Of a DNA stretch of 64,000 nt, positions 20,711 to 57,050 are shown one piece after another (positions within the stretch are counted from its first letter, which is position 1; every line of letters starts with the position of its first letter). The stretch is from assembly GCF_963921235.1 (NCBI RefSeq), contig NC_086097.1, forward strand, positions 12,090,001 to 12,154,000. The letters are read 5' to 3'. Origin of the DNA: Mobula hypostoma (taxonomy: Eukaryota). The position numbers were made by a program, and so were the translations under genes. The notes under the pieces are model-generated. The model had not been told where the DNA came from, did no database searches, and worked only from the letters and a program-made list of their open reading frames with translations.

Positions 20711-21427
20711 GACAGCATCTCCACCCAGCCATCACAATGTTGCTGATCTGTACCTCAACTCTATTTTATCTTTTATTTTGAAATACAATATGGAACAGAC
20801 CCTTCTAGCCCAACAAGATGCACCACCAGCAACATACCTAATGATCAATTAACCTACTAATTGTATTTTCCTTTGTTTACACCAGAATGAACTCCAGTAG
20901 TTATGGTTTGATCTGACCCAGGCAGATTGGGCTGTACCAGAGAAAAACATAAAGTGACTACAGAGGGAGATAACAAAGTTAATGTTGTTCAGGACTTTGT
21001 AACTCAAGTGTTGGATGCAATATTGAGTTGACCCTCTTTAAAGAATTATATCATGCAACATAGTAGTCTCTATATATAATGGTTGGAAATGGGGCCAGTG
21101 GGGATGAGTACCTGATAACAGGCATGGACATGGTAGACCAAACATGACTCTATGAGTGTGCAAAGAAACAATACTGAGGTTAGATGCAGACAAAATGCTG
21201 GAAGAAAATCTACCAATCCTCCATCAGGACTGAAAAAGGTCTCAGTCTGGTACATTGATTGATCATTTCCTTCCATAGATGCTGCTTGATCTGCTGAGTT
21301 CCTTCAGCATTTGTGTGTGTTGATCCAGAATTCCAGCATCTGCAGTCTCCAGGTTTAGGATAGAATTTTCCAGGAGGATTTATTTATTTGTTTGTTTGTT
21401 TGTTTATTTATCTATCTATCTATTTGA

Positions 21428-34265: not shown

Positions 34266-34428
34266 TCAAACGGAAGTCTGGGCTGCAGTAACCCCCTCGA
34301 TGAGCTTACATACACTGTTCGCAGAAGGCATCAACCTGTTGCTGACTTTATTTAAAGCGACAGCATCAGTTTTATTGTTCTCAGTATCCTGGAGTGGTTG
34401 AAGAATATCATATTCTGATCTCTGTTTC
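34266..34428 (-). CDS. probable last coding exon of an unidentified gene: KQRSEYDILQPLQDTENNKTDAVALNKVSNRLMPSANSVCKLIEGVTAAQTSV*
   Basis: Acceptor tcttttgtgcag|G; phase 2 matches the previous exon (CT+G=Leu); 123-nt intron. Confidence 0.7.
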
Positions 34429-34551
34429 CTGCACAAAAGACTTCTTATATTTTTTATGCCGATCATTTGCTGTGCACAGATGTCACTACATTTGCAGTTT
34501 CTTCAAAGGTTAAAGATTGTTCACCACTAGAATGGGCTTTGTTGAATTTAC

Positions 34552-35905: not shown

Positions 35906-37380
35906 CCATAAGATATAGGAGCAGAATTAGACTCATCAAATCAGCTTTGCCATTTCATCATGGCTGATTCAATTTTCCTTTCAGCCCCAGTCTCGTGCCT
36001 TCTTCCCTTTCATACCCTGACTAATCAAGAATCTATCAACCTCTTCCTTAAATATACCCAAAGACTTAGCCTCCACAGCCACATGTGGATATGAATTCCA
36101 CAGATTCAGTACTCCCTAGTGAAAGAAATTCCTCCTCATCTCCACTCTAAAAGGACACCCCGCTATTCTGAGGCTGAGTCGTCAGGTCTTAGACTCACTC
36201 ATCCTAGGAAACATCCTCTCCACATCCACGCTATTGAGGTCCTTCAATATTCAACAGGTTTCAATGAGATCACCCTTCATTTTTCCTAAATTCCAGTGAG
36301 TAGAAGCCCAAAGCCATCAAATGCTCCTCATATTATAAACTATCAATCCGAGAATCATTTTCATAAACTTCCTTTGAACCCTCTCCATGTCACCACATAT
36401 TTTTATGGATAAGGAGCCCAAAACTGCTCACCAGTACCTTATAAAGCATTAGCATTACATCCTTGCTTTTATATTCTAGTCCTCGTGAAATAAACACTAA
36501 CATTGCATTTTCCTCCCTCACAACTGATTCAACCTGCAAATTAACCTTTAAGGAATCCTGTCTGCTTTGCAACTAGGATTTTTGAACTTTCTCTCCATTT
36601 AGAAAGTAGTCTATGCTTTTATTCCTTCTACCAAAGTGCATGACCAAACACATCCTGACTTTGCATTCCATCTGCCACTTCTTTGCCCATTCTCCTAATC
36701 TGTTTAAGTCCTTCTGTAGCCTCTCTGCATCCTCAACACTACCTGCCCCTCCATCTAGCTTCATATCCTCCGCAAGGATGGCCACATCAATTTCATCATC
36801 AAATCATTGACATACAAAGTAAAAGGAAGCGATCCCAACACAGACCCCTGTGGATCACCACTAGTCAATGGCAGCCAACCAAAAAAGGCTCCCTTTATTG
36901 CCACTCTTTGCCTCCTGCCCATCAGCCAATGCTCTATCCATGCTTGTAACTCTCCTGTAATACCACGGGTTCTTCGCTTGTTAAGCAACGTCATGTGTGG
37001 CACGTTGTCAAAGGCCTTCTGAAAATCTAAGTACACAACATCAACCAATTCTACTTTGTCTATCCTGTTTGTTACTTCTTCAAAGAATTCCGTCTCAATT
37101 GCTAGGTAAGACTTTTCCTTGAGGAAACCGTGCTGACTATTGCCTATTTTATCATGTGCCTTCAAGTACCGCAAACCACATTCTTAACAGTCGACTCTAA
37201 CATCGTCCCAACCACTGAGGTCAGACCAATTGGCCTATTATTTCCATCTTTCTGCTTCCCTCCCTTCTTGAAGAGTGGAGTAATATTTACAATTTTCCAG
37301 TCTTTTGGAACCATTGCAGAATGTAGTGATTCTTGAAAGATCATTACTAATGCCTCCACAATCTCTTCAGCCAATCTCTT
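35906..37380 (-). mobile_element. CR1 3' half, decayed
   Basis: VPKDWKIVNITPLFKKG, SQHGFLK, VYLDFQKAFD, PQGSVLG; tail at left. Confidence 0.92.
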
Positions 37381-40119
37381 CTGATTTTATTAGACACACT
37401 ATTTTTCTTCAATGCTTCAAATGAACAAATGAATTTAAACTAAAAATAAGTGAGAAATTTTGACAGCACCTTTAATAGAATCATAGAGCACTACAGCACA
37501 GAAACAGGCCCTTTGGCCCATTTAGGTCATGCGGAACTATTAGTTTCCTAATCTTATTGATCTGTACCTGGACTGTAGTCCTCTATACTTCTCCCATCCA
37601 TGTACTTATCTAAATGTCTCTTCAATGTTGATATTGAACCTGCATCCACCACCTCCACTGGCAGCTCGTTCCAAATTCTCGCCTCTCGAAGCGAAGAAAT
37701 TCCCCATCATGTTCACCTTAAACATTTCATCTTTCTCCCTTAACCCATGCCCCCTAGTTCTAGTCTTATCCAAATCCATGTAGAAGGAGAAGAGCCACCT
37801 GTGGATTTCTCTTTAAGACCCACACCATCCTGGCTTGCTTTGGAAATACACGGGTCATTCTTCATCACTCTTGTGTCAAAAATTTGGTATATGATCTGAG
37901 GAGAAGCATGGAGAGCTGCTGCATCTCAGCTTCAGTGACCCAGGTCCAATCCTGACCTCCATTGCTGTCTGGGCGGAGTTTGCAAGTTCTCTCTATCACT
38001 GTCCAGCATTCCTCCTCAGTGCTCAGTTGTTCTCCAAAATCCCGAAGCTGAGCGGATTAGCAGCCTAATCAGTCATGGTAAATTGCCCCTGGTCTGTATG
38101 TGAGTGAGAGATTGAGAAGAAGTGTTCTCCCAAATCCCAAAAGCATGTGGATTAGCAGGCTAATCAGTGTGTAGGTGAGTGGTGGAACTAAGAAGGAGAA
38201 TTAATTGTTGGTAAAATTATTTGGTGATTTGTCATAGACTCCGTGGAGCAAAATGACCTCCTTTGTTACTGTAAGGAAATAAGAACTGTTACTGTGTGAG
38301 TACCTTCACTCGAAGGACCATGGCAGTTCAAGAAGGCGGCTCATTACCAAACTCTTAAAGGATTAGGTTTGGGCAATAAACTACTCTTCTGACTGCTGCC
38401 ATCAAGTAGAAGGTACAAGAACCTCAGGAATCGCACCACCAGGTTCAAGAACAGTTACTACCTCTCAACCATCAAGCTCTTGAATAAAAGGGGACAACTA
38501 CACTCAACTTCACTTGCCACATCATTGAAATGTTCCCATAACCAATGATCTCTCTTTCGAGGACCCTTTATCTCATTATCTCATGGTCTTGTTATTCAAA
38601 TGCATTGCATTCGAAATGTCACTGGTTAATCTGTTCTGTACCTTACAATATTTAATTTATGCAGTTTGCTTTGTCTATTCATGCATAATTCATCTGTAGA
38701 TTTTATCCTTACATTCATAACTTATATGTGTCTTATGTGTACTACTGTGCATTGGACCTTAATTCCGAGAAACGTTGTCTCATTTGACAGTATACATGTA
38801 TATAATTAAATGACAATAAATTTGACTTAGCTTGACTTCTTTTTATTTATATTTGTAGTTGCACAGTATGTTATCTTCTGCACCCTGCTTGATCTTTCAT
38901 TGATCCTGTTATAGTTACTATTCTATAGATTTGTCAAATATGCCCGCAAAAAGGTGAATCTCAGGGTTGTATATGGTGACATATATGTACTTGGATTATA
39001 AAATTTACTTTGAGCTTTGAACTTTAAGTACGTTCCTTCCACAAAAAACAATTTAAAATAATCAAGTGAATGTTTATATCTGTCTGTGTGTGTGTATGCA
39101 CAAACTGAAACCCATTCTTGGAGCCCTGCAGACACAGTTGGTATTTTAAGAGAAAAACTCTCTGAAATAAATCTGTTACATATGTTATTCATTTAGAGTT
39201 GCTCACAGCTTGGAAATGTTACTGTCTGCATTGAAATAGAAGCAACAAACCAAAATCTGGACATTTTATTTAATCCTATTAGAGTATATAGATTTAAGAT
39301 GGACTTGAGATTCATTAGCAATAGAGATAATGAAAGCATGTGTAGCAGACTCAGTGATATCAATGCTCAATATGTGAAAGTACTTCACTTTGAAGCAATA
39401 TGTCATAACATTAAAGTTATTTCAGAGTAACCCAGTGGACGAGCTAGTGACGCTGTTTTGAACTAGGTTTAGGATTGTGGATATAAAGAACAGATGGTAT
39501 TGCTGACGAGTTTGAGTTCTATTTGTTCTTATCTCAATCAAATCTGAAGAATTATCCAGTTGGCTCCATGCTCCTGTGCTTTTTCAACTTTGTTTCTTTT
39601 AAATGTTTAGATATTTTACTTTTAAATACCGCTCTTGCTTCTGTTTCCACCTGTTTTCTGTTGGGACTTTTTTAGATCTGAACAACTTCCTGCATTCGAA
39701 ACAAAAATTCCCCTAATCTCTCCCTTTTGGTGATAATCTTCAGTTCATGTCTTGCAGTCATAGGGTGTAAGGTATAAATTTAAGATCAAATTTGGATTTT
39801 GATTTTCCCAGTTTTTTTTTCCCTTAAATTCTTTGTGACTTTGGCCATCTTTGTCTGACCATCACCTGAGTATTCAAACAAAGTGCTCTGCAGATACTTG
39901 CAGAAAAATGTGTCCACCCTTTACAAGCTAATGGGGAAATTGTAATGTATAGATCTATTTCCTTTACAGCAATGTCACCCCCCACCCCGCTTGGCACTAC
40001 ATATTGATCTGTTGCCAGTGCAGGTACTGTTGACTATGCTTGTGCATTGTTGTCTCTCTCCCTCGTCTCTCACTACATTGTGAATACACCAGTTAAAGCC
40101 ACCTCCCGCGTTTAACTGA

Positions 40120-40860
40120 GGCCACGTCTAGGCTACACCAAATAATTTTGAAAACGAAGCTTTTTCTCTTCGTTTTGACCCTCTGTCCACACTAAAACGA
40201 CGTTTTCATCCCCCGAAAACTGAGATTTTTAGAAACGGTCTGCAGTGAATAAATCTGAAAACGCCGAATATCCGTTGTAGTGCGTATGGGGTAAACAGAG
40301 AGATTTAAAAATGCTGTCATGACAACACCACAACAACAATGCTTTTTCTGCTTCTGCTTGGTACCACGCAAGCACTGCCGGACGGCTGTTATAACGCGCA
40401 GTCGGTGTGAACGGCGTGAGAGTTAAATTGTAACGTGAGCTTTTTTGACTATTTTTAAAATGTTTTATACATTTAACAAGGTGCTTTATTAATGCAACAG
40501 AGTTAGTCAGTATTTCAATGTTCATCATCAGCCGGGTCATACTGTCCGTGAACTCCCTGTCGGTTGCCTCCATACGCTCCAGTATTTGTTTTTTTTTCAG
40601 TTTTAAGTCCTCCTGCGCGAGAGCCAAGAGCAATTCCTTTAAAGTTTTTCTACTCTGTAACTGGACAAATGCGCACCAAGTATACCGTTTCCTCTTCGCT
40701 TATTTTCTGTGTGTCCTGCGCATGCCCAGTAGGAGGAGATTCGCCCAAATATCCACCTAATGTGGACAGAGATATTTTGAAAAACACTTAGTGAGGACGC
40801 CTGTCGTTTTTAATCGAAACCGGGGTTTTCAAAGTTATCCGGCGTAGTGTAGACGTAGCC
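40120..40860. mobile_element. non-autonomous PIF/Harbinger-like DNA transposon with ~36-bp TIRs
   Basis: Left ggccacgtctaggctacaccaaataattttgaaaac versus right (reverse complement) ggctacgtctacactacgccggataactttgaaaac; CpG-rich interior; minus-strand coiled-coil remnant LLALAQEDLKLKK..ERMEATDREFTDSMTRL; flanks tga/tcg (TSD not clean). Confidence 0.8.
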
Positions 40861-40902
40861 TCGTATGTAGTTGTGCACAGACAGAACAAAAATGAATAAA
40901 AT

Positions 40903-41110
40903 TAAGACCATAAGACAAAGAAGCAGAAGTTGGCCATTTGGCCCATCGAGTCTGCTCCGCCGTTTTATCATGAGCTGATCCATTCTCCCATTTAGTCCCA
41001 CTCCCCCGCCTTCTCACCATAACCTTTGATGCCCTGGGTATCAATCTCTGCCTTAAATACTCCCAATGACTTGGCCTCCACTGCCGCCCGTGGCAACAAA
41101 TTCCACAGAT
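40903..41110 (-). mobile_element. CR1 3' tail
   Basis: taagaccataagac..ggccatttggcccatcgagtctgctcc. Confidence 0.8.
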
Positions 41111-43574
41111 CTTGAAGTTTCTTAAGGAAGAAACTTTTAAGATGGCACAAAGTTTTGGTTTCAATATGGAGCAAACTGCTGTATCTGTTGAGGTTGTGGC
41201 TCAAACATTGTATTTTTTTTAGTTTTGTAGAAATTTTTTAGTATGTAGAAATTGTTCTGAGGATAGTGAAGGAAGTCAGTGGTCATGTTAGGGTTTAGGG
41301 GTAGAGATGTGAGGAAGCTTGAGCACAGGCCAGACAGGCCAGAATCTAAGCCTCTACTCCACATTTGAAAGCCAGTGGAAGGGTGTTGTCAGATGGAGGC
41401 TGAGGCAGACCTGCAAAAGCATTCAAAATACAGGAGGAACTTAGCGGGTCGGGCAGCATAACTGGCCGAGTTCCTCCGGCAATTTGTGTATGCTTCTCTG
41501 GCTTGCCAGCATCTGCAGAATCTCTTGTGTCTGCGAAAACTTTCAGGCTCCCATCATCAGGGTCTAGCTTTGGGGTCACATCATCAGCTAGTCTGGCGTC
41601 TGAGACCTGGAGTTCAATCCTTTACCGAGGATTCACATTCATCGTGATCCACGACTGCTGGATCAACACAGAAGATTGAAGCCCGAAGGTCAACTTGAGG
41701 CTGTATCGAAGCTAAAGGATCAATCGGAGGTCTGGATTGAAACCCAAACATCGACTGGGGGTCCAGAAGTTGAGGCCCAAAGACTGGAGCCCAGGCCTAT
41801 GAATCCCTGCGAGCCAACGAAGGCAGCCTGTCCTGGGGTTACAGTGTATGTGTGGGTAGGAGGGCAGGGCGAACGGGGCTTGTTCCACTGTTGTTGTTTT
41901 GCTGCCTGGCATGTTGTGATTTGCTGTGTTCTGCCAAGCATTGTGGGCATGCTACGTTGGTGCCGGAATGTGTGGCGATCTTGGGGGCTACCCCCTGCAC
42001 ATCACTGATTGTTAACGCAATGACACATTCCACCGAATATTTCGAAGTACATGTGATAAACTTGAATCTGAGTCTGAACAAAACCAGGTAAACCAACATT
42101 AAACTAATTAATAGCATACACAATAAGATAGACTACAACTGTAGCACCAATACACTGATGCTCAAAAAGTTAACCTAATGTATTTATAAAAGCTGTGAAA
42201 CCTATCAGATCAAAGCACTATTGTTTTGCAATAATTTTATGGCCCTATAGTCAGTTTTATTCTTTTTCCTCAAACAATAATTGTTATGAAAAGTCATCTA
42301 TTAATTGTTCAAGATTGTTTAATCTTATTTCCAGAACAGAAGTGCAAATGAAAATAAAATAATTGTTACTCTGGATCTGATACAGCACAAAAAACACAGT
42401 AAGATAAAGAATACAATAATTTAAATACACACTAAGTATAAATGCATAGGCTCCTGATTAGAGAAGCCATCAAAGGTTATGGGGAGAAGGCAGGAGCATG
42501 GGATTGAGAAGGATAATAAATCAGCCATGACGGAATGACTGAGCAGACTCGATGGGCTGAATGGCCTAATTCAGCTCCTATGAGTTAAGGTCTTATGATT
42601 TTATCAGAGAGCTTGTATACTGTACACGGATTGATTGTATGTGTATAAAGTTTCTTAAGGTTGTTATAACTGTGGATTGTAATGGGGATAAGATTCCACT
42701 ACCTAGTAAATGCTTCCAACAGCGTGCGCCTCAAATAGCCTCTGACATCCAGGTCCAGAACCTGCCATAACAGACAAGGGCAGGTTATTGGTGCCTTAAA
42801 ACCAGTCGCTTCAGGCAGATGGGGCTCATCAGCTGTGATTAGCAGCTCATCTAGGAGAAGGAAAACTCTGATCTCTAACCACCGCTGTTGTGAGGCAATA
42901 CCCACTCATGGGGAAGGCTTCAGGAGTAAACCCAGTTGAAACATGCAGAGCTGGTGTCCCTAAGACAGTCCTACATTGAGTTCAATGATGATAGGCAACT
43001 CATGCGACACTGTTGGTACCAAACTGTATCGGTCTCTGCCATTCTTTAGGGTTGATTCAGATGCAGGGGAAGGGGGAGCTTGCTACATGGGTAACAGCTT
43101 GATCTCCACATTGTACTGCCCAGGCTTGTGTATCTAGACAGCCACGATGCAATATCCATGGTCTCTCTGACTGATGGAGGCCTCAAAAGTGACAGTAGTG
43201 ACAGGAGTGTTTAATCCATATTGGATATTTATGAACAGGTCAAATTAGGGACTGCTACTTTATTGGAAAAGGATATTATCAATACTTCTCTTGTGCAATG
43301 ATCCTTTTTTTTGCTTCAAGTATAACAAACAGAACTGTCCAAGCAGCTAACATAGCAGAACATTATTGTGTGTGGCATTAGATTTCTAGGAAACCAAAGG
43401 AGCCACTTCGGAAAAATTTCTTTTGTTGTCTCCTCTACTTCTCATCCATCTCATTAATTGCCCTCCCCTTCCCGCATTTTGATGAATTTGCCTCTTTCCC
43501 TCGGAGCCCTCCTTACCAAATTAACCATAGATTCATTCACATCCAAACTGATAATATTCCAAGGTCAAAATCTT

Positions 43575-44965
43575 CCAGAAATTCCAGCCAGTGGTTGGGA
43601 AGTAGTTGGAATTGATTGTTAGGGATGAGATTAAGGAGTACCTGGAGGCACATGACAAGATGGGCCAAAACCAGCATGGTTTCCTGAAGGGTAAATCCTG
43701 TCTGGCTAACCTACTGCAGTTTTTTGAGGAAATTACAAGCATGGTAGGCAAAGGACATACAGTAGATGTGGTGTACTTGGATTTTCGGAGGCCTCTGACA
43801 AGGTGCCGCAGATGAGGCTACTTAGCAAGATACGAACCCGCGGAACTGCAGGGAAGTTACTAGCATGGGTGGAGCATTGGCTGATCAACAGAAAACAGAG
43901 AGTGGGAATAAAGGGATCCTATTCTGGCTGGCTGCTGGTTACGAGTGGAGTTCCACAGGGGTTGGTGTTGGGACTGTTGCTTTTTTTGATGTATGTCAAC
44001 GATATGGTCTATGGGATTAATGGATATGAGGTTAAATTTGCTGATGATACAAAGATGGGTGGAGGAGCGGGTAGTGTTGAGGAAACAGAGAGCCTGCAGA
44101 GAGACTTAGATAGTTTAGGGGAATGAGCAAAGAAGTGGCAAATGAAATACAATGTTGGAAAGTGTATGGTCATGCACTTTGATGGAAGAAATAAACGGGC
44201 AGACTATTACTTAGATGGGGAGAGAATTCAAAATGCAGAGATGCAAGGGGCTTGGGAGTCCTTGTGCAGGATACCCTACAGGTTAATCTCCAGGTTGAGT
44301 CAGTGGTGAAGAAGGTTAATGTAATGTTGGCATTCATTTCTAGAGGCATAGAATACAAGAGCAGGGGTGTGATGGTGAGGCTCTATAAAGCACTCGTGAG
44401 ATCACACTTGGAGTATTGTGTGTAGTTTTGGGCTCCTTATTTTAGAGAGGATATACTGACATTGGAGAGGATTCAAAGAAGATTCACGAGAATGATTCCA
44501 GGAATGAAAGGCTTACCCTACAAGGAACGTCTGGCAGCTCTTGGGCTGTATTCCCTGGAGTTCAGGAGAATGACGGGGGGGATCTCATAGAAACATTCCA
44601 AATGTTAGAAGGCCTAAACAGATTAGTTATGGCAAAGTTATTTCCCATGATAGTGGAGTCTAGGACAAGAGGGCACGACTTCAGATTTGAAGGACGTCCA
44701 TTTAGAACAGAGATGCAGAGAAATTACTTTAGTCAGAGGGTGGTAAATCTATGAAATTTGTTGCCATGAGCAGCTGTGAAGGCCAAGTCATTGGGTGAAT
44801 TTAAAGCAGAGGTAGATAGGTTCTTGATTAGCTAGGGCATCAAAGGGTATGGGGAAAAGGCAGGGGAGTTGAGACGACTGGAAGAATTGGATCAGCCATG
44901 ATTGAATAGCGGAGCAGACTTGATGGGCTGAATGACCTACTTCTGCTCCAATATGTTATGGTCTT
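43575..44965 (+). mobile_element. 5'-truncated CR1, RT to tail
   Basis: NQHGFLKGKSCL, SGVPQG, KFADDTK; TSD aatctt at 43569-43574 and 44966-44971. Confidence 0.93.
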
Positions 44966-47900
44966 AATCTTTTGCATTGAGTTTGATAGTGAGAAACTTC
45001 ACTCAGAAACAATTGTGTTTAACGTAAGAGAATTACAATGGAATGCAAATAAAATAACGTAACGGAAATCCTAGAATATGGAACAATACAGCACAGGAAC
45101 AGGCCCTTCAGTGCACAATGTTTTGCTGAATCAATTCCGCCTACACAATGTCCATATCCCTCCATTTTCTCAACATTCAAGTGTCTATCTAAGTGTCTCT
45201 TAAAAGTTCCTAATGCATCTGCCTCTACCACCATCCAGCAGTGCATTCATAGAGCATAGCCTGGGTGGTGGGGATCTCAGATGAAGGATGCTGCTTTTCT
45301 ATGACAGTGTTAGGGTTTTGGCTCTTAATGTCTGCTGTACTTTTTTTCCGTAGATTCTGTCTGGCCTGCTGTGTTCCTCCAGCATTTTGTGTGTGTTGCT
45401 CGGATTTCCAGCATCTTCAGATTTTCTCCTGTTTGTAATCTTAATTCTTGGTCAGTTAGCAAAGTCCTATGACTTAGTAATTTTGGGTTACCCTTATTTC
45501 ACAATATTGAGTTTATCATCTAATTCTTTTTATTTAGTAGGTAATTTATTAAACATTGCAAGCGCAGTGTGATTTGAAAGCACTTATATATTTGTATGGT
45601 TCATCTTGTCAAATAAACTCATCGAGTTTCAAACTTTTAATTAGCATTTTTGGATTCCTTAAATCTGGAAATATGTTGAGCTATCATTGATCACAACCAT
45701 GTACTCAAAGGATATGCTTATAATATGCAAACAATGACAATTTAAAGAGAATTATTTACAATGGATCTGCTGGGATGTCATACAGATTCTGTCATCCTTT
45801 TCAAAGATGAACATATGGTGCATATTTTGCCTGTTTCTTTTAAGGGGCAAGTCTTTGAGGTTCAGTTACTATTTTGTGCTATTCATCTGTATCATTAAAC
45901 TGGAAGGAGGAGACTCTCGTCGTGTTGGTTTTCATTTAAAGTTAACCCAGAACAGCTCTGATTTGGCTGTGGGGCAAAGGTCCCGAGGAATATCCAGGAG
46001 ACAATAACAGAGCTCCCTTCCATGGGAAATGAGTCACTTTGCGTTCATTAAACATTTACAAATTTATTTTTAATGGACCATTACTGCGGATAATTGAATG
46101 ACTTTCTTTAGATTGTTGGTTACGGTTCTGAATCCCTGGGCTGTCAATTCAATCCACCTGCAGCTGATGAAAATACATTTCAGGCAGGCTGTGCATTCTT
46201 TTGGTGGCATCTATTCTGGCCTGCTAGAGGGAAATGGACGCTACCTCTACCAGTAAACAGGTGCAGTCAGTTAGAAACTTCAACATATTGGTGGAATAAA
46301 GCAAATTTCATGATTTAAAGTTTACATAGGGCAACTCCCATGTCCACAGAGTACCAGTGGTTGGGCTCAAATCCAAGAAAATCAGTTGAATCTGGTGAAT
46401 TTATTTTTCAGGAGTTCTGTGGTTCAAGATTGCTTAATGTCATTTCCATTACATGACTGTAAAGGAGAACAAAATAATTGTTACTCTGCAGCACAAAAAA
46501 GCACAATAAGATCTGTGAAATTCTTTGCCACAGGCAGCTGTGGAGGCCAAGTCTTCATGCATATGTAAGGTAGAGTTTGATAGATTCTTGATCGATCAGA
46601 GCATGAAGGGATATGGGAAGAAGACAGGAGGTTGGGGCTGAGAGGAATATTCAATCAGCCATAATGAAATAGCTGAGCAGACTCGATGGGCCAAATGGCC
46701 TAATTCTGCTTCCATTTCTATGGTCTTATGGTCTGAGATGAAAAATTCAATAAGAAAAAATACATAAAATAAAAACAAGTCTGTCCTAATTAGCTATTGC
46801 TCATAATATATACAACAGATTAATAGTAATTCACCTTATAAATCTCTATTTATTTGTTTGTTTATTTATTTATTTAGATACAGGGCAGAATAGGCCCTTC
46901 TGGCCCTTTGAACCATGCTGCCCAGCAATCCCCCAATTTATTCTGAGTTTAATCACTGGGCAATTACAATTAACCTACCAAACGACACGTCTTTGGTCTG
47001 TGGGAGGAAACTGCAGCACCAGGAGTAAACCCATGCAATCACGGGGGAATCCTTACAGGCAGCTTCCGGAATTGAACCCAGGCCACCTGCACTGTTAATC
47101 ATTGTGCTAACCGCTACACTACCGTGCCACCTGATTATGCTGATTACTGCAAATAATCTGTTACTTACTTCAAAACTCTGTTTTTTTAATTCAACGTTTA
47201 CTCTAGTCAGTTTTATCAGAAAGATTTCCATTTTCATTCCAGGGGTGAGAAGGTTTTTGCACAAGAGGCTAGGAAATTTGGGCCGTATTCTGTTTGGAAG
47301 CAGGGGAGACCATAAGGCTGAAAGAAATAGGAATAGCTTAACCTTGTTTTGTCATTCAGCTGGATTAAGGCTGATTTGACAATCCTCATCAAACTATCAA
47401 TACCTCTGTAAACTGTCACAAAGTACAAAGTAAATCTATTGTCAAAGTATGCATACATATACAATCTTGAGATTCATTTTCTAGCAGGCAGCCACAAAGC
47501 AAAGAAACACAATAGAAACCACAGGACACAAAGACCGACAAGCATCCAATGTTTGAAATAAGAACAAGTTGTTCACACAATTAAAACAAGTTAACAACAT
47601 ACTGTAATAAATAGAACGTGAACCACAGAGGTCACAGCTTCCGTGCCAGTTCAGCACTGAGTGGAGTGAAGCCAGACCAGGAGTCCGATGGCAGCAAGCC
47701 AGAGCTTCAGATTTAGCTCAACGTTGAAGTGGATGAAGCTGAGAGAGAACTGCTTGCCTCTTCTTCACAACTTGCCTTCCCAACTAATTTTATGTTGTCC
47801 CCAAATATGACCGAAAGTATTACACTAGTTCCTCCATTCCCTAGTATACATTGTAAATCTGCCACTGATCTTTGGTGTACCGCTTTGGTCTCAGGTATAC

Positions 47901-50182
47901 TTACCTTCATTTGCTGTGTCCTGTCTATTAGTCAATCCTCTACTGATGCCAGCATGGCAGCTCCAATATCAAGAGCTTGAATTATGTGGCTTAACTTGAT
48001 GCAAGGGTTCTTGTCGAGTGTCTTCTGGAAGTCCAAATGTAAAATATCTACTGCTTAGAACTTACTCAGAGAAAAATCAGAAGACTTTTCCTTTAATGAA
48101 GCCATGCTGACTCTACTGTCAGATTACAATATTCCAAATATGCTGCTAGTACTTTGTAAATAATTGTGTTCAGTTCTGGTTGCCTCGTTATAGGAAGGAT
48201 GTGGAAGCTTCAGAGAGGATGCAGAGGAGATTTACCTGGATGCTACCTGTCTTATGAGGGAATGTTGAGAGAGCTAGGGATTGGTTGGTTAATTGGTCAT
48301 TGCAAATTGTCTCTTAATTAGGCTAGGATTAAATCAGAAGGCCGCTGGGCAGGGTGGTTTGAAGGGCCAGAAGGGTCTATTCTGTGTCGTATCTCAATAA
48401 ATCGATAAATAAATAAATTTTCTTTGGAGCAAAGGAGGATGAGAGGAGACTTGACAGAAGAGTACAAGATGAAAAGAGGTATAGAGAGAGTCGGTTCATT
48501 CCCAAAGCCCCTCTACATCAAGAAACTTTTGTCTTAATTGGGATGGACTTTTACTCAGTGTCATGACTTAGTTATTAAACATTCAACACAGTTTTCCACA
48601 ACTAACAAATTTCATGACATATGCTGGTGATATTAAACATGATTGTGTGGAAAGGGTGCAGAAGAAGTTTACCAGGATGCTGTCTGGATTAGAGGATATG
48701 TGACATTTAACAAGAGGTTGGACAAACTTGGGGTTGTTTTCTCTGGAGCGGCAGAGGCTAAGGGGAGATCTGGGAGAGGTTTATAAGATTATGAGAGGCA
48801 TAGGTAGTATCTTTTTTCCTGAGTTGAAATATCTAATACCAGAGGGCATGCATTTAAGGTGAGAGGGGGTAATTTCGAAGGAGATGTGAGGGCAATGTTT
48901 TTTTACACAGAGAGTTGTGGGTATCAGGAATGCACTGCTGGATGGTGGTAGAGGCAGTTGCATTAGGGACTTCTAAGTGACATTTAGATGGACACTGAAT
49001 GTTGAGAAAATGGAGGGATATGGACATTGTGTAGGCAGTACTGATTCAGCAAAACATTGTGGGTTGAAGGGCCTGTTCCCGTGTTGTATTATTCAATATA
49101 CTAGGTTTTCTGTTAAGTTATTTTATTTACATTCTATTGTAATTTTCTTAAGTTAAACACAGTTGTTTCTGAGTCAAATTGCTCACTCTCAAACTCAATG
49201 CAAAAGATCATGTTGCAATATTGCTTTCTCAGCGATATTTTATTCTGAGGTCATTTATTAAGCCTGCTTAATACCCATTACCAGATCCAAGAGGGCCTGT
49301 TCCCTCATTAGCTTCCTAACGTATTGACCTAGGAACTATCCCAAATATTCTCTGTGAATTTGTTCTTATCCCGACCCATTTCAACCTAATGAATCCAAAC
49401 TTCATGAAGAATAGCCTCCTATAATTTTTGCATTGCTTTTTACATGACCCCTTTGTTATCTTGTCCTACATTTTGGAGACAGGAGACTGCACTGCTGGAA
49501 TCTAGAGTAAAATAACAAATGCAAGAGGAACTCGGAAAGTTGGGCAGCATCTGTAGAAGAAGACGGACAAGAAATCTTTTTGGTCTCAGATGAAGTGTAT
49601 AGTCACTAAACATTATCTGTCTATCTTGCCTCATATATATTGCCTGACCCATTGAGTTCCTCCAGCATTTTGCTACTTGCTCCTACAATATTTGGGAGTC
49701 TAGGGGATAACCTCACTCAACTTTACTTGCCTCCTCATTGAAATGTTCCCACAACCGATGGATGAACATGATTCTTCATCTCATGTTATCAATATTCATT
49801 GCGTATTTGTTTATTATTATTGTTTCTTCTTTTTGTATTTGCACAGTTTGTTGCCTTCTCTACACTGAATACACTAATTGGGCCGTCTTTCATTGATTCT
49901 GTTATAATTATTGTTCTATAGATGTGTTAAGTATTCCTGCAAGATAATGAATCTTATTGTTGTATACAGTGACATATATGTAATTTGTTAATAAATATGC
50001 TTTGAACTTTGAACTGTACAACTTCTGAGTGTAAATTGTCTCTTACAACTTTAACTAATGGTATGACTTCACCACCCTTACCTTCCCATGTGTCCTTCCT
50101 AAACGTCACCCCTGAAAATTAAACTCCTTACTTTAATTTAGTTCCAAATATGTCTCTATTATGTCTGTCAGATTACACATTT

Positions 50183-50788
50183 TTAGATTAGATTAGATTA
50201 GATTATGAGGACACGCAGTCCTCGTTTATTGTCATTTAGTAATGCATGCATTAAGAAATGATACAATATTCCTCCGGTGTGATATCTCAGAAACACAGGA
50301 CAGACCAAGACTGAAAAACTGACAAAAACCACAAAATTATAACATATAGTTACAACAGTGCAAGCAATACCGTAACTTGATGAAGAACAGGCCATGAGCA
50401 CAGTACAAAAAAGTTCAAAGTCTCTCGAAGGTCCCACATCTCACGCAGACGGGAGAAGGAAAAAAACTCTCCCTGCCATGCCCAACCAGGGTCCAACTTT
50501 GAGTTGTCCGAAAACTTCGAGCTCTGATCAGCCCTCCGACACTGAGCACCGAGCACCATCTCTGCCGAGCACTTCGACCCCAGCCCTGACCGCCAGCAGC
50601 AGGCAAAGCTGAGGATTTTAGGGCCTTTCCTCTGGAGATTCTGGATCACACAGTAGCAGCGGCAGCGAACCGGGAATTTCAAATGTTCCTCCGTGCTTCG
50701 CATGGCTGTCTCCATCAAATCAGAATTATGCACGGTACCTTATTTAACAAATACGATATCAGTTCACCAGAGAGGCAGTGCGCGCTCT
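50183..50788 (-). mobile_element. CpG-rich retroposon copy E
   Basis: (ttaga)n tail, body homologous to copy G. Confidence 0.85.
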
Positions 50789-51553
50789 CTGTTTTTTACC
50801 TCTGTTTGTCTTGTTAGCTCATCAACGAGACTACAAATGCCATGTGAATTAAGATACAATTTCTTTGGGATAGTATCTTTGTCATTTTTAATCACCTTAC
50901 ATTTTGTTGGTACTGTGGCCCTATTTACTTCTCACCTTTGATTTCCCTGTATTGTGTTTTTTGGATTTAACTACTTAACTGACCTTGACTCTCCTATCGT
51001 GCATCATTTTCCAACCCCCTGGGATTGAAATGGTAAATTTTGAATGGCCCCTTTCCCTTGTTGGAAAGTGTGTAGCCGGGGGTTGGGGGGTGGCAGAGGT
51101 GGTTATAACCTGAAGATAAAAAGTTCATCCACACTCCAGCTTCCTTTACTGTCAGAAACCATCACCTTCAGCCCTTTGACATTTCCAGCGATCACCTTGC
51201 AGTTCGAGGTTATCTCCACTCTGCTCTCTCCCACCTGCCTATCAACCCTCCTTAAGTGGAGAGAACTGTTGCCTGTCTGCTCCAGCCTCCCTGCACTCTT
51301 TTATACTGGCCATCTCCCTGCAAGACGTTGACAACTGAGAAAGATATCACAGGGTCACCAGATGCTGCAGGGATCCACATAAGTATAGTTTTATCCTCTC
51401 TTTCAAAGTGTGTTTTAAAGGCAATCAGCTAATTGGGAAGTGAAGCATCACAACATTTATGATGTTAGGTTTCACCTTGCAGGAAGTGACGGCCTGCAAA
51501 CTCTGTCATAGCTGATGTGCATCCGATTCTGTTTAAGTCCTCTTCCTTCAGTT

Positions 51554-51589
51554 AGTCCTGACGAAGGGTCTCGGCCTGAAACGTCGACT
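51554..51589 (+). ncRNA. minimal hammerhead ribozyme motif within a Penelope-type terminal repeat (repeat ~51545-51690)
   Basis: agtc-CTGACGA-agggtctcggcct-GAAA-cGTC-gact: helix I agtc/gact, intact catalytic core, palindromic ACGT helix III, GUC cleavage triplet. Confidence 0.7.
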
Positions 51590-51738
51590 GCACCTCTTCC
51601 TAGAGATGCTGCCTGGCCTGCTGCGTTCACCAGCAACTTTTATGTGTGTTGCTTGAATTTCCAGCATCTGCAGAATTCCTGTTGTTTGCTGTTTAAGTTC
51701 TCTTGGAATTGCAAGGAAAAATTTTATGACGTACTGTA

Positions 51739-53538
51739 CACTCAGTGTCTACTTTATTAGGTACATCTGCTCATTAAAGCAATTATCTAATCAGCCAATT
51801 GTGGGGCAGCAACTCAATGCATAAAAGCATGCAGATATGATAGAGGGGTTCTGTTGTTGTTACATCTGCAGCTAGTTGCCGCCCAGACTGGATCCCTTAC
51901 AATTCACTTACCAACACAACCAATAGCCACCGCTCTACATACCATGCTTACTCATCTGGAGAAGAAGGATGCTTATTTGAGAATGCTGTTCTTGGACTAC
52001 AGTTCAGCACTCAACACCATAATTCCATCCAGGCTCGACAGGAAGCTCAGAGACCTTGGCCTTGACCCTGCCTTGTGCAGTTGGATCCTGGACTTCCTGT
52101 CAGATCACCAGCAGGTGGTAAGAATGGGCTCCCTCACCTCCATCCCTCTGACTCTCAACATAGGAGCCCCTCAGGGCTGTGTACTAAGTCCCCTCCTTTA
52201 CTCCCTGTATACCCATGACTGTGTTGTCACCCACAGCTCCATTCTGCTAATTAAATTTGCCGACAACACTACATTGATTGGCCTAATCTCAAACAATAAT
52301 GAGGTGACCTACAGGGAAGAAGTCATCTCTCTGACACAGTGGTGTCAAGAGAACAACCTCTCCCCCAATGTCGCAAAAACAAAGGAGCTGATTATTGATT
52401 ACAGGAGGAATGGAGACGGGCTAACCCCTATTGACATCAATGGATCTGAAGTTAAGAGGGTCAACAGCTTTAAGTTCCTTGGCATAAATATCACCTAGAA
52501 TCCCACGTGATCTGTACATATCGGCTGTGTAGTGAAAAAGGCACAACAGCACCTCTTTCACCTCAGACAGTTGAGAGAGTTAGGTATGGGCCCCCAAATC
52601 CCCAGAACTTTCTACAGCGGCACAGTTGAGAGCATCCTGACTGGCTGCATCACTACCTAGTATGGGAACTGTACATCCCTGTATTGCAGGACTCTGCAGA
52701 GAATGGTACGGACAGCCCAGCACATCTGTAGTTATGAACTTCTCATGATTCAGGACATTTACAAAGACAGGTGTGTAAAAAGGGCCTGAAGGATCATTGG
52801 GGACCCGAGTCACCCCAGTCACAATCTATTCCAGCTGCTACCATCTGGGAAACAGTACCGCAGCATAAAAGCCAGGACCAACATGCTCCAGGATAGCTTC
52901 TTCCATTAGGCCATCAGACTGATGAACTCACGCTGATTTGAGTGTATTTCTATGTTACATTGACTGTTCTATTTATTATAAATGATTATAAATTACTGTG
53001 ATTGCACATTGCACATTTAGACGGAGACGTATCATAAAGATTTTTACTCCTCACGTATGTGAAGGGTGTAAGAAATAAAGTCAATTCAACCAAACATCAG
53101 AACAGGGAAAAAGTTGTGACCTAAGTGACCTTGACCGTGGAATGACGCTGGTGACAAACGGGGTGGTTTGAGTACCTCAGAAGCTGCTGATCTGTTGGGA
53201 TCTTTAGGCATAACAGTCTCTAGAGTTTACAGAGGATGGTGTGAAAAGTGAAAGAAAAACATCCATTGAGCAGTGGTTCTGTGGGTGAAAATGCCTTGTT
53301 AAGGAGAGAGGTCAGGGAGTATGGCTAGACTGGTTCAAGCTGACAGGAAGGCAGCCGTGTACTCAAAGAACCAAGTGTTGCAACAGTGGCGTGCTGAAGA
53401 GCATCTCTGAACAGAGAACAGGTTGAGCTTTATGTAGATGGGTTGCAGCAGCAGAAGGACACAAGCATACTGTACACTCAGTGACCACTTTACTAGGTAC
53501 AGAAACCTGCACTCAGTGGCTACTTTATTGGGTACAGG
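51739..53538 (+). mobile_element. non-autonomous Tc1-like element split by a Rex1 insertion
   Basis: TA|cactcagtgtctactttattaggtaca TIR; CDLSDLDRGM..GGLSTSEAADLLG..TVSRVYRGW at ~53115-53240; two direct TIR copies at ~53474-53538. Confidence 0.8.
51862..53089 (+). mobile_element. Rex1/Babar LINE, 5'-truncated RT to tail
   Basis: RMLFLDYSSALNTI, GAPQGCVLSPLLYSLYTHD, IKFADNT, KTKELIIDYR, FKFLGINI; (ttcaa) tail. Confidence 0.93.
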
Positions 53539-53919
53539 ACGTATATCAGTGATAATAAACCTGATTTTGGGCCATCTACTCTGCTCCTTCCAGCTTTTTG
53601 TGCTGCCCCAGATTCCAGCATCAACAGTATTTAATGTCACTCTAAGTTCCACCTCAGGACTATGGATGTACCATTGACGTACAATCAAGAATGAATTGGC
53701 AGGGTAGAGATACATCTCTACCAAAGGATGTGTAAGGTGCCCCTCCCTTCTGCTAGACCACAGGTCACCTTTGGGCAGAGCGTAACACCTGCTTAGCCCC
53801 CCCAATCAGGGTTACATGAAGTCATGGGAGCAGGTGGTGGATGGTTATACGAGCAGCTCGGCATATCACAAATCCTGGTTACGTGATCAGTGACGCCAGG
53901 CAGACAATCTCTGAAGAGT

Positions 53920-54573
53920 TTAGATTAGATTAGATTATGAGGACAGACAGTCCCCTTTTATTGTCATTTAGTAATGTGTGCATTAAGAAATGATACAATG
54001 TTTCTCCAGAATGATATCACAGAAACACATGACAAACCGACTGAAACACTGACAAAAACCACATAATTATAATATATAGTTACAACAGTGCAAAGCAATA
54101 CCGTAATTTGATAAAGAACAGACCATGGTACGGTAAAAGTCTCAAAGTCTCTCGAAAGTCCCATTACTTCACGCAGACGGTGAACCTCTAGCGCCGCCAA
54201 CTTGCCGATGCAGCATCCTGGAAGCATCCGACCACAGTCCGACTCCGAGTCCGTCCGAAAACTCCGAGCCTCCGACCAGCTCTCCGACACTGAGCACCGA
54301 GCACCGAGCACCATCTCTGCCGAGCACTTTGACCACTGCCCCAGCAACAGGCAATAGGCAAAGCCAAGGATTTGGGGCCTTCACCACTGGAGATTCTCGA
54401 CCACACAGTAGCAGCGGCAGCGAAGCGTGCATTTCAGAAGTTTCTCCAGGTGTTCCTCTGTGCTTCTCAGGGCTGTCTCCATCAAATTAGGATTGTGCAC
54501 GGCCCCTAGCTACACATATGATATCATTCGGAACGGCCGCACACACTGCGTCGCACCGCCATCTTCTCCTCCC
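53920..54573 (-). mobile_element. CpG-rich retroposon copy F, nested in an RTE-related element
   Basis: Splits ctgaagagt|attgataatggctggg of the host element; (ttaga)n tail and ccatcttctcctccc head. Confidence 0.88.
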
Positions 54574-54977
54574 TCTTCATATGCATTGATAATGGCTGGG
54601 TTCACTCGACTTGTAATATTCTCTCTGAATTTTTTCTCATCCCTGCAACACATACAAAATGTTGAAGGAACTCAGCAGGCCAGGCAGCATCTATGGAAAA
54701 AAGCGCAGTTGACGTTTCAGGCCGAAACCCTTGGGCAGGACTCTCGTTCTTATCCTTACCTGTTTTGTCAAGATGCTGCCCAGAAGAAGGCAATGGTAAA
54801 CCACTTCTGCAGAAAAATTTGCCAAGTGCAATCATGATCATGGAAAGATCATGATCATCCACGTCATATGACATGGCACCTAATGAATGACATCTGCGCA
54901 TTAATTCTAGCCATTAACCGAATCAAGGGATATGAAGATATGGTGAAAAGATGGAGACCAGCAACGATTTTGCTGAC

Positions 54978-55106
54978 CTCTGCATTTAATCCCTGTGTGA
55001 AACATTGAGCAAAATATATAGCTGCTTCTTTAAATGTCTTCTCCAGATTGACTTTGGGATCTTCATCAAACACTCTTGCCATAAAAGAGCAATCAGTCAC
55101 CGGATG
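54978..55106 (-). CDS. probable internal coding exon (129 nt): HPVTDCSFMARVFDEDPKVNLEKTFKEAAIYFAQCFTQGLNAE
   Basis: Acceptor gtcttttcaagttcag|CAT (alternative AG 5 nt upstream), donor GAG|gtcagc, protein-like open frame in unique sequence. Confidence 0.6.
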
Positions 55107-55969
55107 CTGAACTTGAAAAGACAGCCGACTTAATGTAACATTTATCCTTTAACAAGCAGGATTACACATTCTGCAATCTTTTTTAACAACTGAGCAAACT
55201 CAAGGTGTCATATGACCTACTCCTTTCGCTCCGTTTTCTCTTCATTTATATCTTTTCTAACCAGAAGCTTTGATACTCTACCTACCACAGTTTAGCAAGT
55301 GGCAGGCTTGCCAAACCTCAGTAGGTGCTCTTTTCAATATAGGTTAAAGAGGCAGCGATACTGGACAAGTTAGCACATTAGCAGGAAGGAAGGAAGTGGT
55401 GCAGCAAAATACAGTTTTCGATCTTGCACCGGCTTTTGCACTGCTGTGCAGGTAATATCTAGCTCCTTTATTCTGATATAAACGCAAGAGATTCTGTAGA
55501 TGCTGGAAATCCAGAGAAACGCATACGAAATGTTGGGAGAACTCAGCAGATTAGGCAGCATTTACAAAAAAGAGTAAACAGTTGATGCTTTGAGACGAGA
55601 CCCTTCATCAGGACTCATTGCAACGTAGTCCAGTCAGGCTTCACTGAAGTCTCTCCAGAACCAGAAGATCAAAACAAGTGTATATTTATCTCCTGGTACT
55701 CTGTTTATAGACTGCATAGTGTAGAAGAAGGCCGTTCAGACTTTTATAAGCAAGCCTGCTTTTTAGAAGAAGCTTTTCGACATGTTTTACTTCCTGGTTC
55801 TTCCTTCACATTCCCACAAATCAGAATCAGGTTTATTTTCAGTGACATACTATAAGTCATAAAATTTATTATTTTTGTGGCAGGAGTACAGGCAGGTATA
55901 ACCAAATTACTATAGTCACAATAAATAAATAAATACACTCATACATAAGTAGTTAGACATATAGATTAG

Positions 55970-57050
55970 ATGATAAGACGCAGAAGCAGAATTAGGCCAT
56001 TTTGGCCCATCAAATCTACTTGTCATTCCATCATGACTGATTTATTATCCTTCCCCACTTCATTCTCCTGCCTTCTCACTGTAACCTTAGAAGCCTTTGC
56101 TAATCAAGAACTTATCAACCTCCACTTAAAAATATACCCAATGACTTGACCTCCACAGCTGTCTATGGCAATTATTTCCACAGATTCACCACCCTCTGGC
56201 TAAAGAAATTCCCCTTCACCTCTGTTCCAAAGGAACATCTTCCCTAATGTTGGGTCTCCACCCGAAACATTGACTGTACTCTTTTCAATTAGATGTGGCC
56301 TGGCGTCTCAAGTTCCTCCAGCATTTTGTTTCTGTTCTGAAGCTGTGCCCTCTGGTCCTGGATTTCCCCACTATCGGAAACGTCCTCTCTACATCCACTC
56401 TTTCAAAGCCTTTTTATATTCAATAGGCTTCAAGAAGGTCCTCCCCATTCTTCTAAATTCCAGTGAGTACAGACTTAGAGCCTTCAAATGCTCCTCCTGC
56501 ATTTGTTTGTCTGTTCATTATGCACTGTGTTGTATGACAAAGGCGATCATGGTCTTTCCATGACCATGAGTGTTCTTGGCAATTTTTTCTACGTTAACAC
56601 TTTCATTTTTCCCAGGAGCATTCTTGTGAACCTCCTCTGGGCCTTCTCCAATGCCAATCCTTTCTTTGATATGGGGCCTAAAACTGCTCACAATACTCCA
56701 AGTGCAACCTGTCCAACATCTTATAACACTTCAGCATCACATCCTTGCTGTCATACTCTAGTGCTCTCCAAATGAATCCTAACATTGCTTTTGCCTTTCT
56801 TACCACCTACTCAACCAGCAGGTTAACTTTTAGGGCATCCTGGACAAAACTCTGCTCCTCTGAATTTTGAATTTTCTCCCTGTTTCAAAAATGGTCTGCA
56901 CCATTATTCCTTCTACCAAAGAGTATGATGGTACACTTCACTACAATGTCACTTTGTTGCCCACTTTCCTAACCTGTCTAAATTCTTCTGCAGACTCCCT
57001 GCTCCCTCAGAACTACCTGTTCCCCCACCCCCTGCCTACTTTTGTATTGT
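55970..57050 (-). mobile_element. old CR1 3' fragment with nested short repeats
   Basis: Tail at ~55975; ttccacagattcaccaccctctggctaaagaaatt; aaactgctcacaatactcc. Confidence 0.8.

What the first reader, a model, noticed from the sequence alone, without database searches (positions are those of the whole stretch)
51554..51589. Intact minimal hammerhead ribozyme inside an abundant short interspersed repeat
Seen: agtc CTGACGA agggtctcggcct GAAA c GTC gact. This gives a helix I 5' strand, the CUGANGA core, a short helix II, GAAA, a palindromic ACGU, a GUC triplet and the helix I 3' strand, with cleavage predicted between 51585 and 51586. Established: Penelope-like elements carry minimal type I hammerheads whose palindromic helix III lets two copies cleave as a dimer. 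Inference: this SINE-looking repeat is a Penelope terminal repeat or retrozyme-like RNA, and this copy is the one in the window most likely to be active. It is antisense to the host gene.
Basis: partly seen in the sequence, partly recalled or inferred. Interest (0 to 1): 0.75.

Follow-up and report, generated by a model that had tools for sequence, protein, structure and literature searches.

The report
Penelope stub carrying minimal hammerhead motif
This is a real, intact copy of the tiny hammerhead RNA motif that Penelope-type jumping genes are already known to carry, sitting in a 150-base broken-off end piece that is one of about 48,000 near-identical copies in this genome, and at this spot it is predicted to fold shut and is likely inert.

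Summary
The motif is there as described and is a minimal type I hammerhead. It is not a SINE or retrozyme. It is the 5'-truncated 3' end (pseudo-LTR plus tail, 51540-51689, 10-bp target duplication) of an autonomous Penelope-like retrotransposon. The 34-nt core has 48,191 exact matches, control 0. Full copies have an open 1043-aa RT/GIY-YIG frame between two hammerhead-bearing repeats. This is the class described in PMC4209133. Corrections: helix II is predicted as extra A plus G.U, not A-U. U11.1 marks the youngest lineage (45,156 vs 8,612). The upstream leader is predicted to sequester the core (P about 0.95). No other intact core lies in the window. No host gene was found, so 'antisense' is unverified. 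Copy ends give only a weak, microhomology-confounded excess at the cut site. The scan has reported this kind before: 123 notes in at least 19 genomes, including this one. Verdict: new member of a known kind, low interest. The one lead is a possibly leader-gated ribozyme.

The parts
51529..51538 (+). Target-site duplication, left copy (10 bp)
   Evidence: Same 10-mer at 51689-51698; rough chance 0.001; 22 of 60 other stubs examined show a TSD of 8 bp or more at the expected place, median 10
51540..51689 (+). 5'-truncated 3' end of a Penelope-like retrotransposon (pLTR remnant plus tail)
   Evidence: 96.6-97.3% identical to the 5' pLTRs of full-length copies L076 and L077; 7 of 30 loci extend over 1 kb upstream into the EN/RT frame
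51540..51551 (+). Pyrimidine leader ending in AG; predicted to pair with CUGA and GAAGGG and block the core; resembles a 3' splice site (untested)
   Evidence: P(leader paired) 0.85-1.0 when the RNA starts at -14 or further upstream, 0 when it starts at -10 or later; 12 of 300 shuffled leaders reach it
51553..51557 (+). Helix I 5' strand (4 Watson-Crick pairs plus one U.G)
   Evidence: Pair probabilities 0.55-0.98 in the 38-nt motif alone
51558..51564 (+). CUGANGA core (N7 = C)
   Evidence: non-CpG positions 97-99% conserved in 89 copies not picked by the pattern
51565..51565 (+). Extra unpaired A between positions 9 and 10.1
   Evidence: a listed trait of PLE min-HHRs in PMC4209133
51566..51577 (+). 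Helix II, predicted G.U, G-C, G-C, U.G with a 4-nt loop; U11.1 replaces the usual C11.1
   Evidence: genome counts U 45,156 vs C 8,612
51578..51585 (+). GAAA core, palindromic ACGU (51581-51584) that can only pair between two copies, and C17 (predicted cut 51585/51586)
   Evidence: sequence; dimer rule from PMC4209133
51586..51590 (+). Helix I 3' strand
51655..51689 (+). PLE 'tail', about 34 nt between the two preferred 3' ends of the family
   Evidence: 3' ends of 128 copies: 60 at +85..+106, 64 at +120..+145, 4 running on towards the ORF; matches the 30-40 bp tail of PMC11167929
51689..51698 (+). Target-site duplication, right copy

Best explanation
This is an intact minimal hammerhead motif inside a 150-bp, 5'-truncated end piece of a very abundant, young Penelope-like retrotransposon, likely inserted by target-primed reverse transcription that began in the element's tail and stopped 18 bases upstream of the core, and likely inert at this locus. 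Shown: the anatomy, the parent element (pLTR-ORF-pLTR with RT, zinc-finger linker and GIY-YIG), the TSD and the copy number. Inferred from published PLE work: the motif can cut only as a dimer or when helped by the element's protein, in the element's own RNA. Predicted here: in read-through RNA the leader pairs with the core and the G.U closing pair weakens helix II, so a lone copy would not cut. Inferred: cutting is not needed for spread, because most copies were made from uncut RNA.
For: 48,191 exact cores, control 0. Full-length L076 and L077 each have an open 1043-aa frame between two same-strand pLTRs (2 of 6 long-frame loci fetched), with RVT_1 E 5e-5 and GIY-YIG E 0.001-0.002. L069 shows pLTR-ORF-pLTR with a 9-bp TSD. 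Two 3' end clusters lie about 34 nt apart, as for the PLE tail (PMC11167929). Inverted partner arms are common: 10 of 60 loci have an intact opposite-strand core, a known PLE trait (PMC8557442). A monomer cannot form helix III; monomeric min-HHR showed no cleavage and dimers low cleavage (PMC4209133). In PAc, hammerhead mutants did not affect insertion and the ribozyme needed the protein. P(helix I) is 0.00-0.08 for this copy whenever 14 or more upstream bases are present. The modelled double hammerhead (-11.5 kcal/mol) lies far above the dimer MFE (-30.3). About 54,000 copies keep the whole core, against 180 young-type copies starting at the cut site under a strict pattern.
Against: No cleavage assay was run, so inertness is predicted only. 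Nearest-neighbour folding ignores tertiary contacts and protein help, and it also scores poorly for min-HHRs that do cut weakly. With 48,000 copies, dimers in trans between transcripts are conceivable. There is a small excess of 5' ends at the cut site: 180 vs 44 at a control 3 nt downstream, and 6 of 30 vs at most 3 at any other offset. So some RNA may be cut in vivo. Both Pfam hits are below their curated cut-offs.
Confidence: 0.8

Rival explanations
1. The hammerhead of the youngest lineage is a gated ribozyme. The leader keeps it shut in read-through RNA (3' pLTR, host introns). It opens only in RNA that starts, or is spliced, at its front edge (-6 to -2), where it cuts with a partner or with the element's protein.
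For: Sharp predicted switch: for 3' end +32, P(helix I) is 0.04-0.08 at starts -18/-14 and 0.95-0.98 at starts -8 to -4. Median P(leader) is 0.95 in 76 U11.1 copies vs 0.33 in 25 C11.1 copies; 12 and 16 of 300 shuffled leaders reach the observed value. 5' ends rise towards the front edge: 174 at -9, 234 at -6, 648 at -2. In D. virilis Penelope an intron ends at helix I (PMC4209133).
Against: In the full 5' pLTR of L077 with the tail (+135), helix I stays at 0.05-0.12 even without the leader. With +60 flank both 11.1 states are mostly shut. 0 of 60 front-edge copies are joined to a distant upstream sense segment, so no spliced genomic copy was seen. A plain loss of function would give the same U11.1 change.
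Confidence: 0.15
2. The hammerhead is decaying: it is dispensable for this family, and the C11.1 to U change was fixed by drift in the master lineage (possibly by CpG deamination).
For: C11.1 sits in a CpG. G10.1-C11.1 is called highly conserved (PMC4209133). The change costs about 5 kcal/mol in the modelled dimer, yet the U lineage is five times more abundant and younger (pairwise divergence 0.059, n=26, vs 0.099, n=27). Naiad PLEs thrive without canonical HHRs (PMC8557442).
Against: All core bases and three other CpGs of the motif are kept as the majority state in the same lineage, and G.U still pairs.
Confidence: 0.3
3. The repeat is a non-autonomous SINE or non-LTR retrozyme that makes circular RNA from tandem units.
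For: Short dispersed stubs dominate. One 145-nt, 3-copy tandem array exists at L175.
Against: 5' ends are variable and run back into the PLE ORF. No tandem array at the site and no tRNA gene. Same-strand partner in 1 of 60 loci. The L175 unit contains an inverted junction and lacks the helix I 5' strand.
Confidence: 0.04

Closest known systems
Minimal hammerheads (min-HHR) in pLTRs of metazoan Penelope-like elements (Cervera and De la Pena 2014, PMC4209133)
   Same: Type I, CUGANGA/GAAA core, extra nucleotide between 9 and 10.1, 4-5 bp helix I, palindromic 15.2-16.2, no monomer helix III, in pLTRs, mostly dispersed single truncated copies
   Different: G10.1.U11.1 instead of the conserved G-C in 84% of exact cores; helix II is 4 bp (7-8 bp in the Schistosoma families); about 50,000 exact cores against about 4,000 and 9,000 reported for coelacanth and Xenopus; no shark or skate name in the 2 supplementary files searched
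PAc, Poseidon element of Anolis carolinensis (Frangieh et al. 2024, PMC11167929)
   Same: pLTR-ORF-pLTR, hammerhead near the ORF start, two 3' ends separated by a 30-40 nt tail
   Different: This ORF has the CX4CxxC linker that Penelope/Poseidon lack; the first Met lies well downstream of the hammerhead rather than in stem II; the 3' ends fall in a UG-rich rather than AC-rich stretch
Neptune clade of EN+ PLEs (as described in Craig et al. 2021, PMC8557442)
   Same: RT, then CX2-5CxxC linker, then C-terminal GIY-YIG; 5' truncation, inverted partner arm, tail, variable TSD
   Different: Clade not tested by phylogeny; insertions examined are not confined to microsatellites
Animal non-LTR retrozymes (bioRxiv 10.64898/2026.07.22.740005)
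   Same: Type I hammerhead of PLE origin; dispersed monomers exist; reported in one chondrichthyan
   Different: Defined there by at least two consecutive tandem units with complete hammerheads; this copy is a lone stub of an autonomous element

Membership tests
PLE minimal hammerhead (PMC4209133) | CUGANGA and GAAA...UH core with type I helix I | tested here: met
PLE minimal hammerhead (PMC4209133) | Unpaired nucleotide between 9 and 10.1 | tested here: met
   A51565 unpaired; that register has P 0.87-0.97 (prediction)
PLE minimal hammerhead (PMC4209133) | Palindromic 15.2-16.2, no monomer helix III | tested here: met
   ACGU 51581-84 with no loop
PLE minimal hammerhead (PMC4209133) | G10.1-C11.1 pair (reported as highly conserved; not part of the search descriptor) | tested here: not met
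   G.U in this copy and in 45,156 of 53,768 exact cores; G-C in 8,612 older-type cores of the same family
PLE minimal hammerhead (PMC4209133) | Located in pLTRs flanking an RT/EN ORF | tested here: met
   L076, L077, L069
PLE minimal hammerhead (PMC4209133) | Self-cleavage as a dimer | not testable with these tools
   needs a bench assay; the genomic footprint test was inconclusive
EN+ Penelope-like element | Single ORF with RT and C-terminal GIY-YIG | tested here: met
   1043-aa open frames; RVT_1 at 534-696, GIY-YIG at 946-1020, both below curated cut-off
EN+ Penelope-like element | pLTRs, 5' truncation, inverted arm, 30-40 bp tail, variable TSD | tested here: met
Neptune clade | CX2-5CxxC zinc-finger linker between RT and EN | tested here: met
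   CX4CxxC read in the translations; criterion from PMC8557442
Neptune clade | RT phylogeny groups with Neptune | not tested
   no reference RT set was fetched
Non-LTR retrozyme | Two or more consecutive tandem units with complete hammerheads | tested here: not met
SINE | Non-autonomous, fixed 5' end with a Pol III (tRNA-type) head | tested here: not met
   variable 5' ends running into the PLE ORF; no tRNA gene in the window

The most novel reading that the evidence does not exclude
The most recent, most successful lineage of this Penelope family carries a gated hammerhead. A C11.1-to-U change lets the upstream pyrimidine leader lock the catalytic core in any read-through RNA, which would spare host transcripts from some 45,000 inserted copies. 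The ribozyme unlocks only in element RNA that starts or is spliced at its front edge.
Probability: 0.15. Interest if true: 0.5.

Novelty: new member of a known kind. Interest (0 to 1): 0.2.

Why it matters
As it stands it adds one more genome, with a very high copy number, to a published class. What hammerheads do for Penelope elements is still open (PMC8557442 says their function in EN+ PLEs is unclear; PMC11167929 found cleavage dispensable in vitro). This family offers a natural pair of variants, older G-C and younger G.U with a locking leader, plus intact young elements. A simple assay could therefore tell whether the ribozyme is regulated or decaying. The single copy flagged is unlikely to matter by itself.

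Tried and rejected
Rfam: no hit at gathering score in the window; three unrelated chance hits at E<=10. DNA search of the own genome returned nothing because common words are skipped. Host gene: 155 of 192 unmasked stop-to-stop frames of 45 aa or more were scanned with Pfam (55% of the window masked as repeat). The best hit was clusterin-like at 34269-34502 (-), E 4.6e-4, below cut-off; a genome search for the family listed 11 matches on other contigs and not this place. PDB searches of three frames and an Atlas search gave nothing. Short exons could be missed. RNA: no RNA holder listed, only contigs guessed to be RNA. Laying 4 runs each on window 37000-56900 and on L077:4900-5700 showed no start/end pile and no GT..AG joint at the leader AG among the rows shown (15 of 3034 and 15 of 66 joints); uninformative. 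Spliced genomic copies: 0 of 60 (one 3' UTR copy with a small deletion). Cut-site footprint: of 30 copies starting at +28, 22 join an inverted arm, 6 host flank, 2 direct. Several inverted junctions share 2-4 nt with the helix I strand. By eye, 15 of the first 100 of 2,510 matches start at +28, 13 at +24 and 12 at +23. Not accepted as proof of cleavage. The first ORF search used a query with a frameshift and favoured copies with the same break; it was repeated with an in-frame query. '48 of 48 young copies have U11.1' is biased, because both ORF queries came from U11.1 loci. The Lunse et al. paper on dimer cleavage was not held; only its title was seen in a reference list.

Full report
Observation. 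The bare core pattern is no more frequent in the window than in shuffles (8 vs 6.9), and Rfam finds no hammerhead. The motif is nonetheless real as a family trait: a 34-nt pattern has 48,191 exact matches in the 3.48-Gb genome and the reversed control none. Of 12 local hits to the repeat in the window, only this one keeps both core boxes. In 20 kb of flank on each side there is one more, about 59 kb upstream (L082).

What the repeat is. Thirty loci share their 3' ends and differ in 5' length; 7 of 30 run more than 1 kb upstream into a frame with RT and GIY-YIG motifs. Of six long-frame loci fetched, two (L076, L077) have an open 1043-aa frame between two same-strand copies of the repeat. Pfam gives RVT_1 (E 5e-5) and GIY-YIG (E 0.001-0.002), both below cut-off. 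A CX4CxxC linker precedes the endonuclease, the mark of Neptune-type elements in PMC8557442 (passages); the clade was not tested by a tree. L069 is pLTR-ORF-pLTR with a 9-bp target duplication. The 3' ends of 128 copies fall in two groups about 34 nt apart (60 and 64 copies, 4 run on), the PLE tail of PMC11167929 (parts 1-2 of 4 read). The window copy is therefore a stub, 51540-51689, 96.6-97.3% identical to the intact 5' pLTRs, with a 10-bp duplication at 51529 and 51689. It is not a SINE and not a retrozyme in the sense of bioRxiv 10.64898/2026.07.22.740005 (parts 1-2 of 5 and passages read): no tandem array here, and a same-strand intact partner in 1 of 60 loci.

The ribozyme fold. The extra nucleotide, short helix I and palindrome are the traits listed for PLE min-HHRs in PMC4209133 (parts 1-2 of 4 read). 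That paper also lists G10.1-C11.1 as highly conserved. Here U11.1 cores number 45,156 and C11.1 cores 8,612. U11.1 goes with the young diagnostic bases (74 copies, with no C among the ten commonest classes covering 138 of 142 copies) and with lower pairwise divergence (0.059 vs 0.099). Some U in older copies is probably CpG decay (inference). Single passages in PMC2837043 and PMC544870 mention the pair but give no rate for G.U, so its kinetic cost is not established here.

Likely working. Published tests found no cleavage by a monomeric min-HHR and low cleavage by dimers. In the anole element the ribozyme needed the protein, its mutants still inserted, and no RNA-seq reads began at the cut. 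In this copy the retained leader (51540-51551) is predicted to pair with the core: P(helix I) 0.00-0.08 for any start at -14 or upstream, against 0.40-0.98 for starts at -9 to -4, depending on the 3' flank. The effect is stronger in U11.1 copies (median 0.95, n=76) than in C11.1 copies (0.33, n=25), and 4-5% of shuffled leaders match it. It comes mainly from position 11.1, and with 60 nt of 3' flank both states are mostly shut. These are nearest-neighbour predictions only. I conclude that the stub was likely copied from uncut element RNA and is likely inert.

Genomic footprints. Counts of copies whose three upstream bases all differ from the element: 174 at -9, 234 at -6, 648 at -2 (the -9 pattern is 3 nt shorter at its 3' end), 180 at the cut site and 44 three bases downstream (young-type anchor). 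The rise towards the front edge agrees with earlier scan notes that the RNA may start there. The cut-site excess runs against full inertness of the family but is weak: 22 of 30 such copies join an inverted arm, often through 2-4 shared bases, and only 6 of 30 join host DNA. In a set not chosen by offset, 6 of 30 start at +28 and at most 3 elsewhere. By eye, 15 of 100 listed matches start at +28, 13 at +24 and 12 at +23. The leader ends like a 3' splice site, as in D. virilis Penelope where an intron ends at helix I, but 0 of 60 front-edge copies look spliced.

Host gene. None was identified, so the claim of antisense orientation is open.

Novelty. The class is published. The scan itself holds 123 notes with these words in at least 19 genomes, two of them in this genome; these are unchecked AI notes and are not counted as support. 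I found no paper on hammerheads in cartilaginous-fish PLEs in three searches (listings only, one hit checked by passages) or in 2 supplementary files of PMC4209133 (file 1 was not searched, and bioRxiv supplements are closed, so either may list such a family). That the genome is from a cartilaginous fish is recalled from the look of the repeats and from note e1-8169432, not shown by a call. PMC6765202 and PMC6155905 were seen as passages. Verdict: new member of a known kind, interest 0.2. The leader-gating idea is the only part that could surprise a specialist (probability 0.15).

Noticed in passing
window 34269-34502 (-): Weak clusterin-like frame (Pfam E 4.6e-4, below cut-off) with a plausible acceptor; not among the 11 genome matches for the family; chance or a decayed exon.
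   Followed up: partly
L175 1339-1774 (G000:C2:12242838-12243273): Three perfect 145-nt tandem units made of inverted pLTR halves; each has the core but lacks the helix I 5' strand.
   Followed up: partly
L204 about 1500: A tail end joined head-to-tail directly to the predicted cut site of a second copy; a single case, compatible with a cut-and-joined RNA or a template jump.
   Followed up: no
L177, L180, L198, L200 about 1500: Inverted copies whose junction uses the 4 helix I bases, as if the cDNA folded back on helix I after reaching the front edge of the hammerhead.
   Followed up: partly
window 51689-51704: The target site resembles the element's own continuation past the tail, and 5 further bases are shared at the 5' junction; in 15 other stubs with clean 3' ends, 8 had 1-4 nt overlap and 7 none.
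   Followed up: partly
L059-L070, end of RT region: Many near-full copies lose frame in the same poly-C run before the linker; partly an effect of the query used.
   Followed up: partly
window 18446-20754 (-): Fragmented L1/Tx1-like RT frames; further LINE fragments near 51950-52400 (names recalled from the translations, not from a family scan).
   Followed up: no
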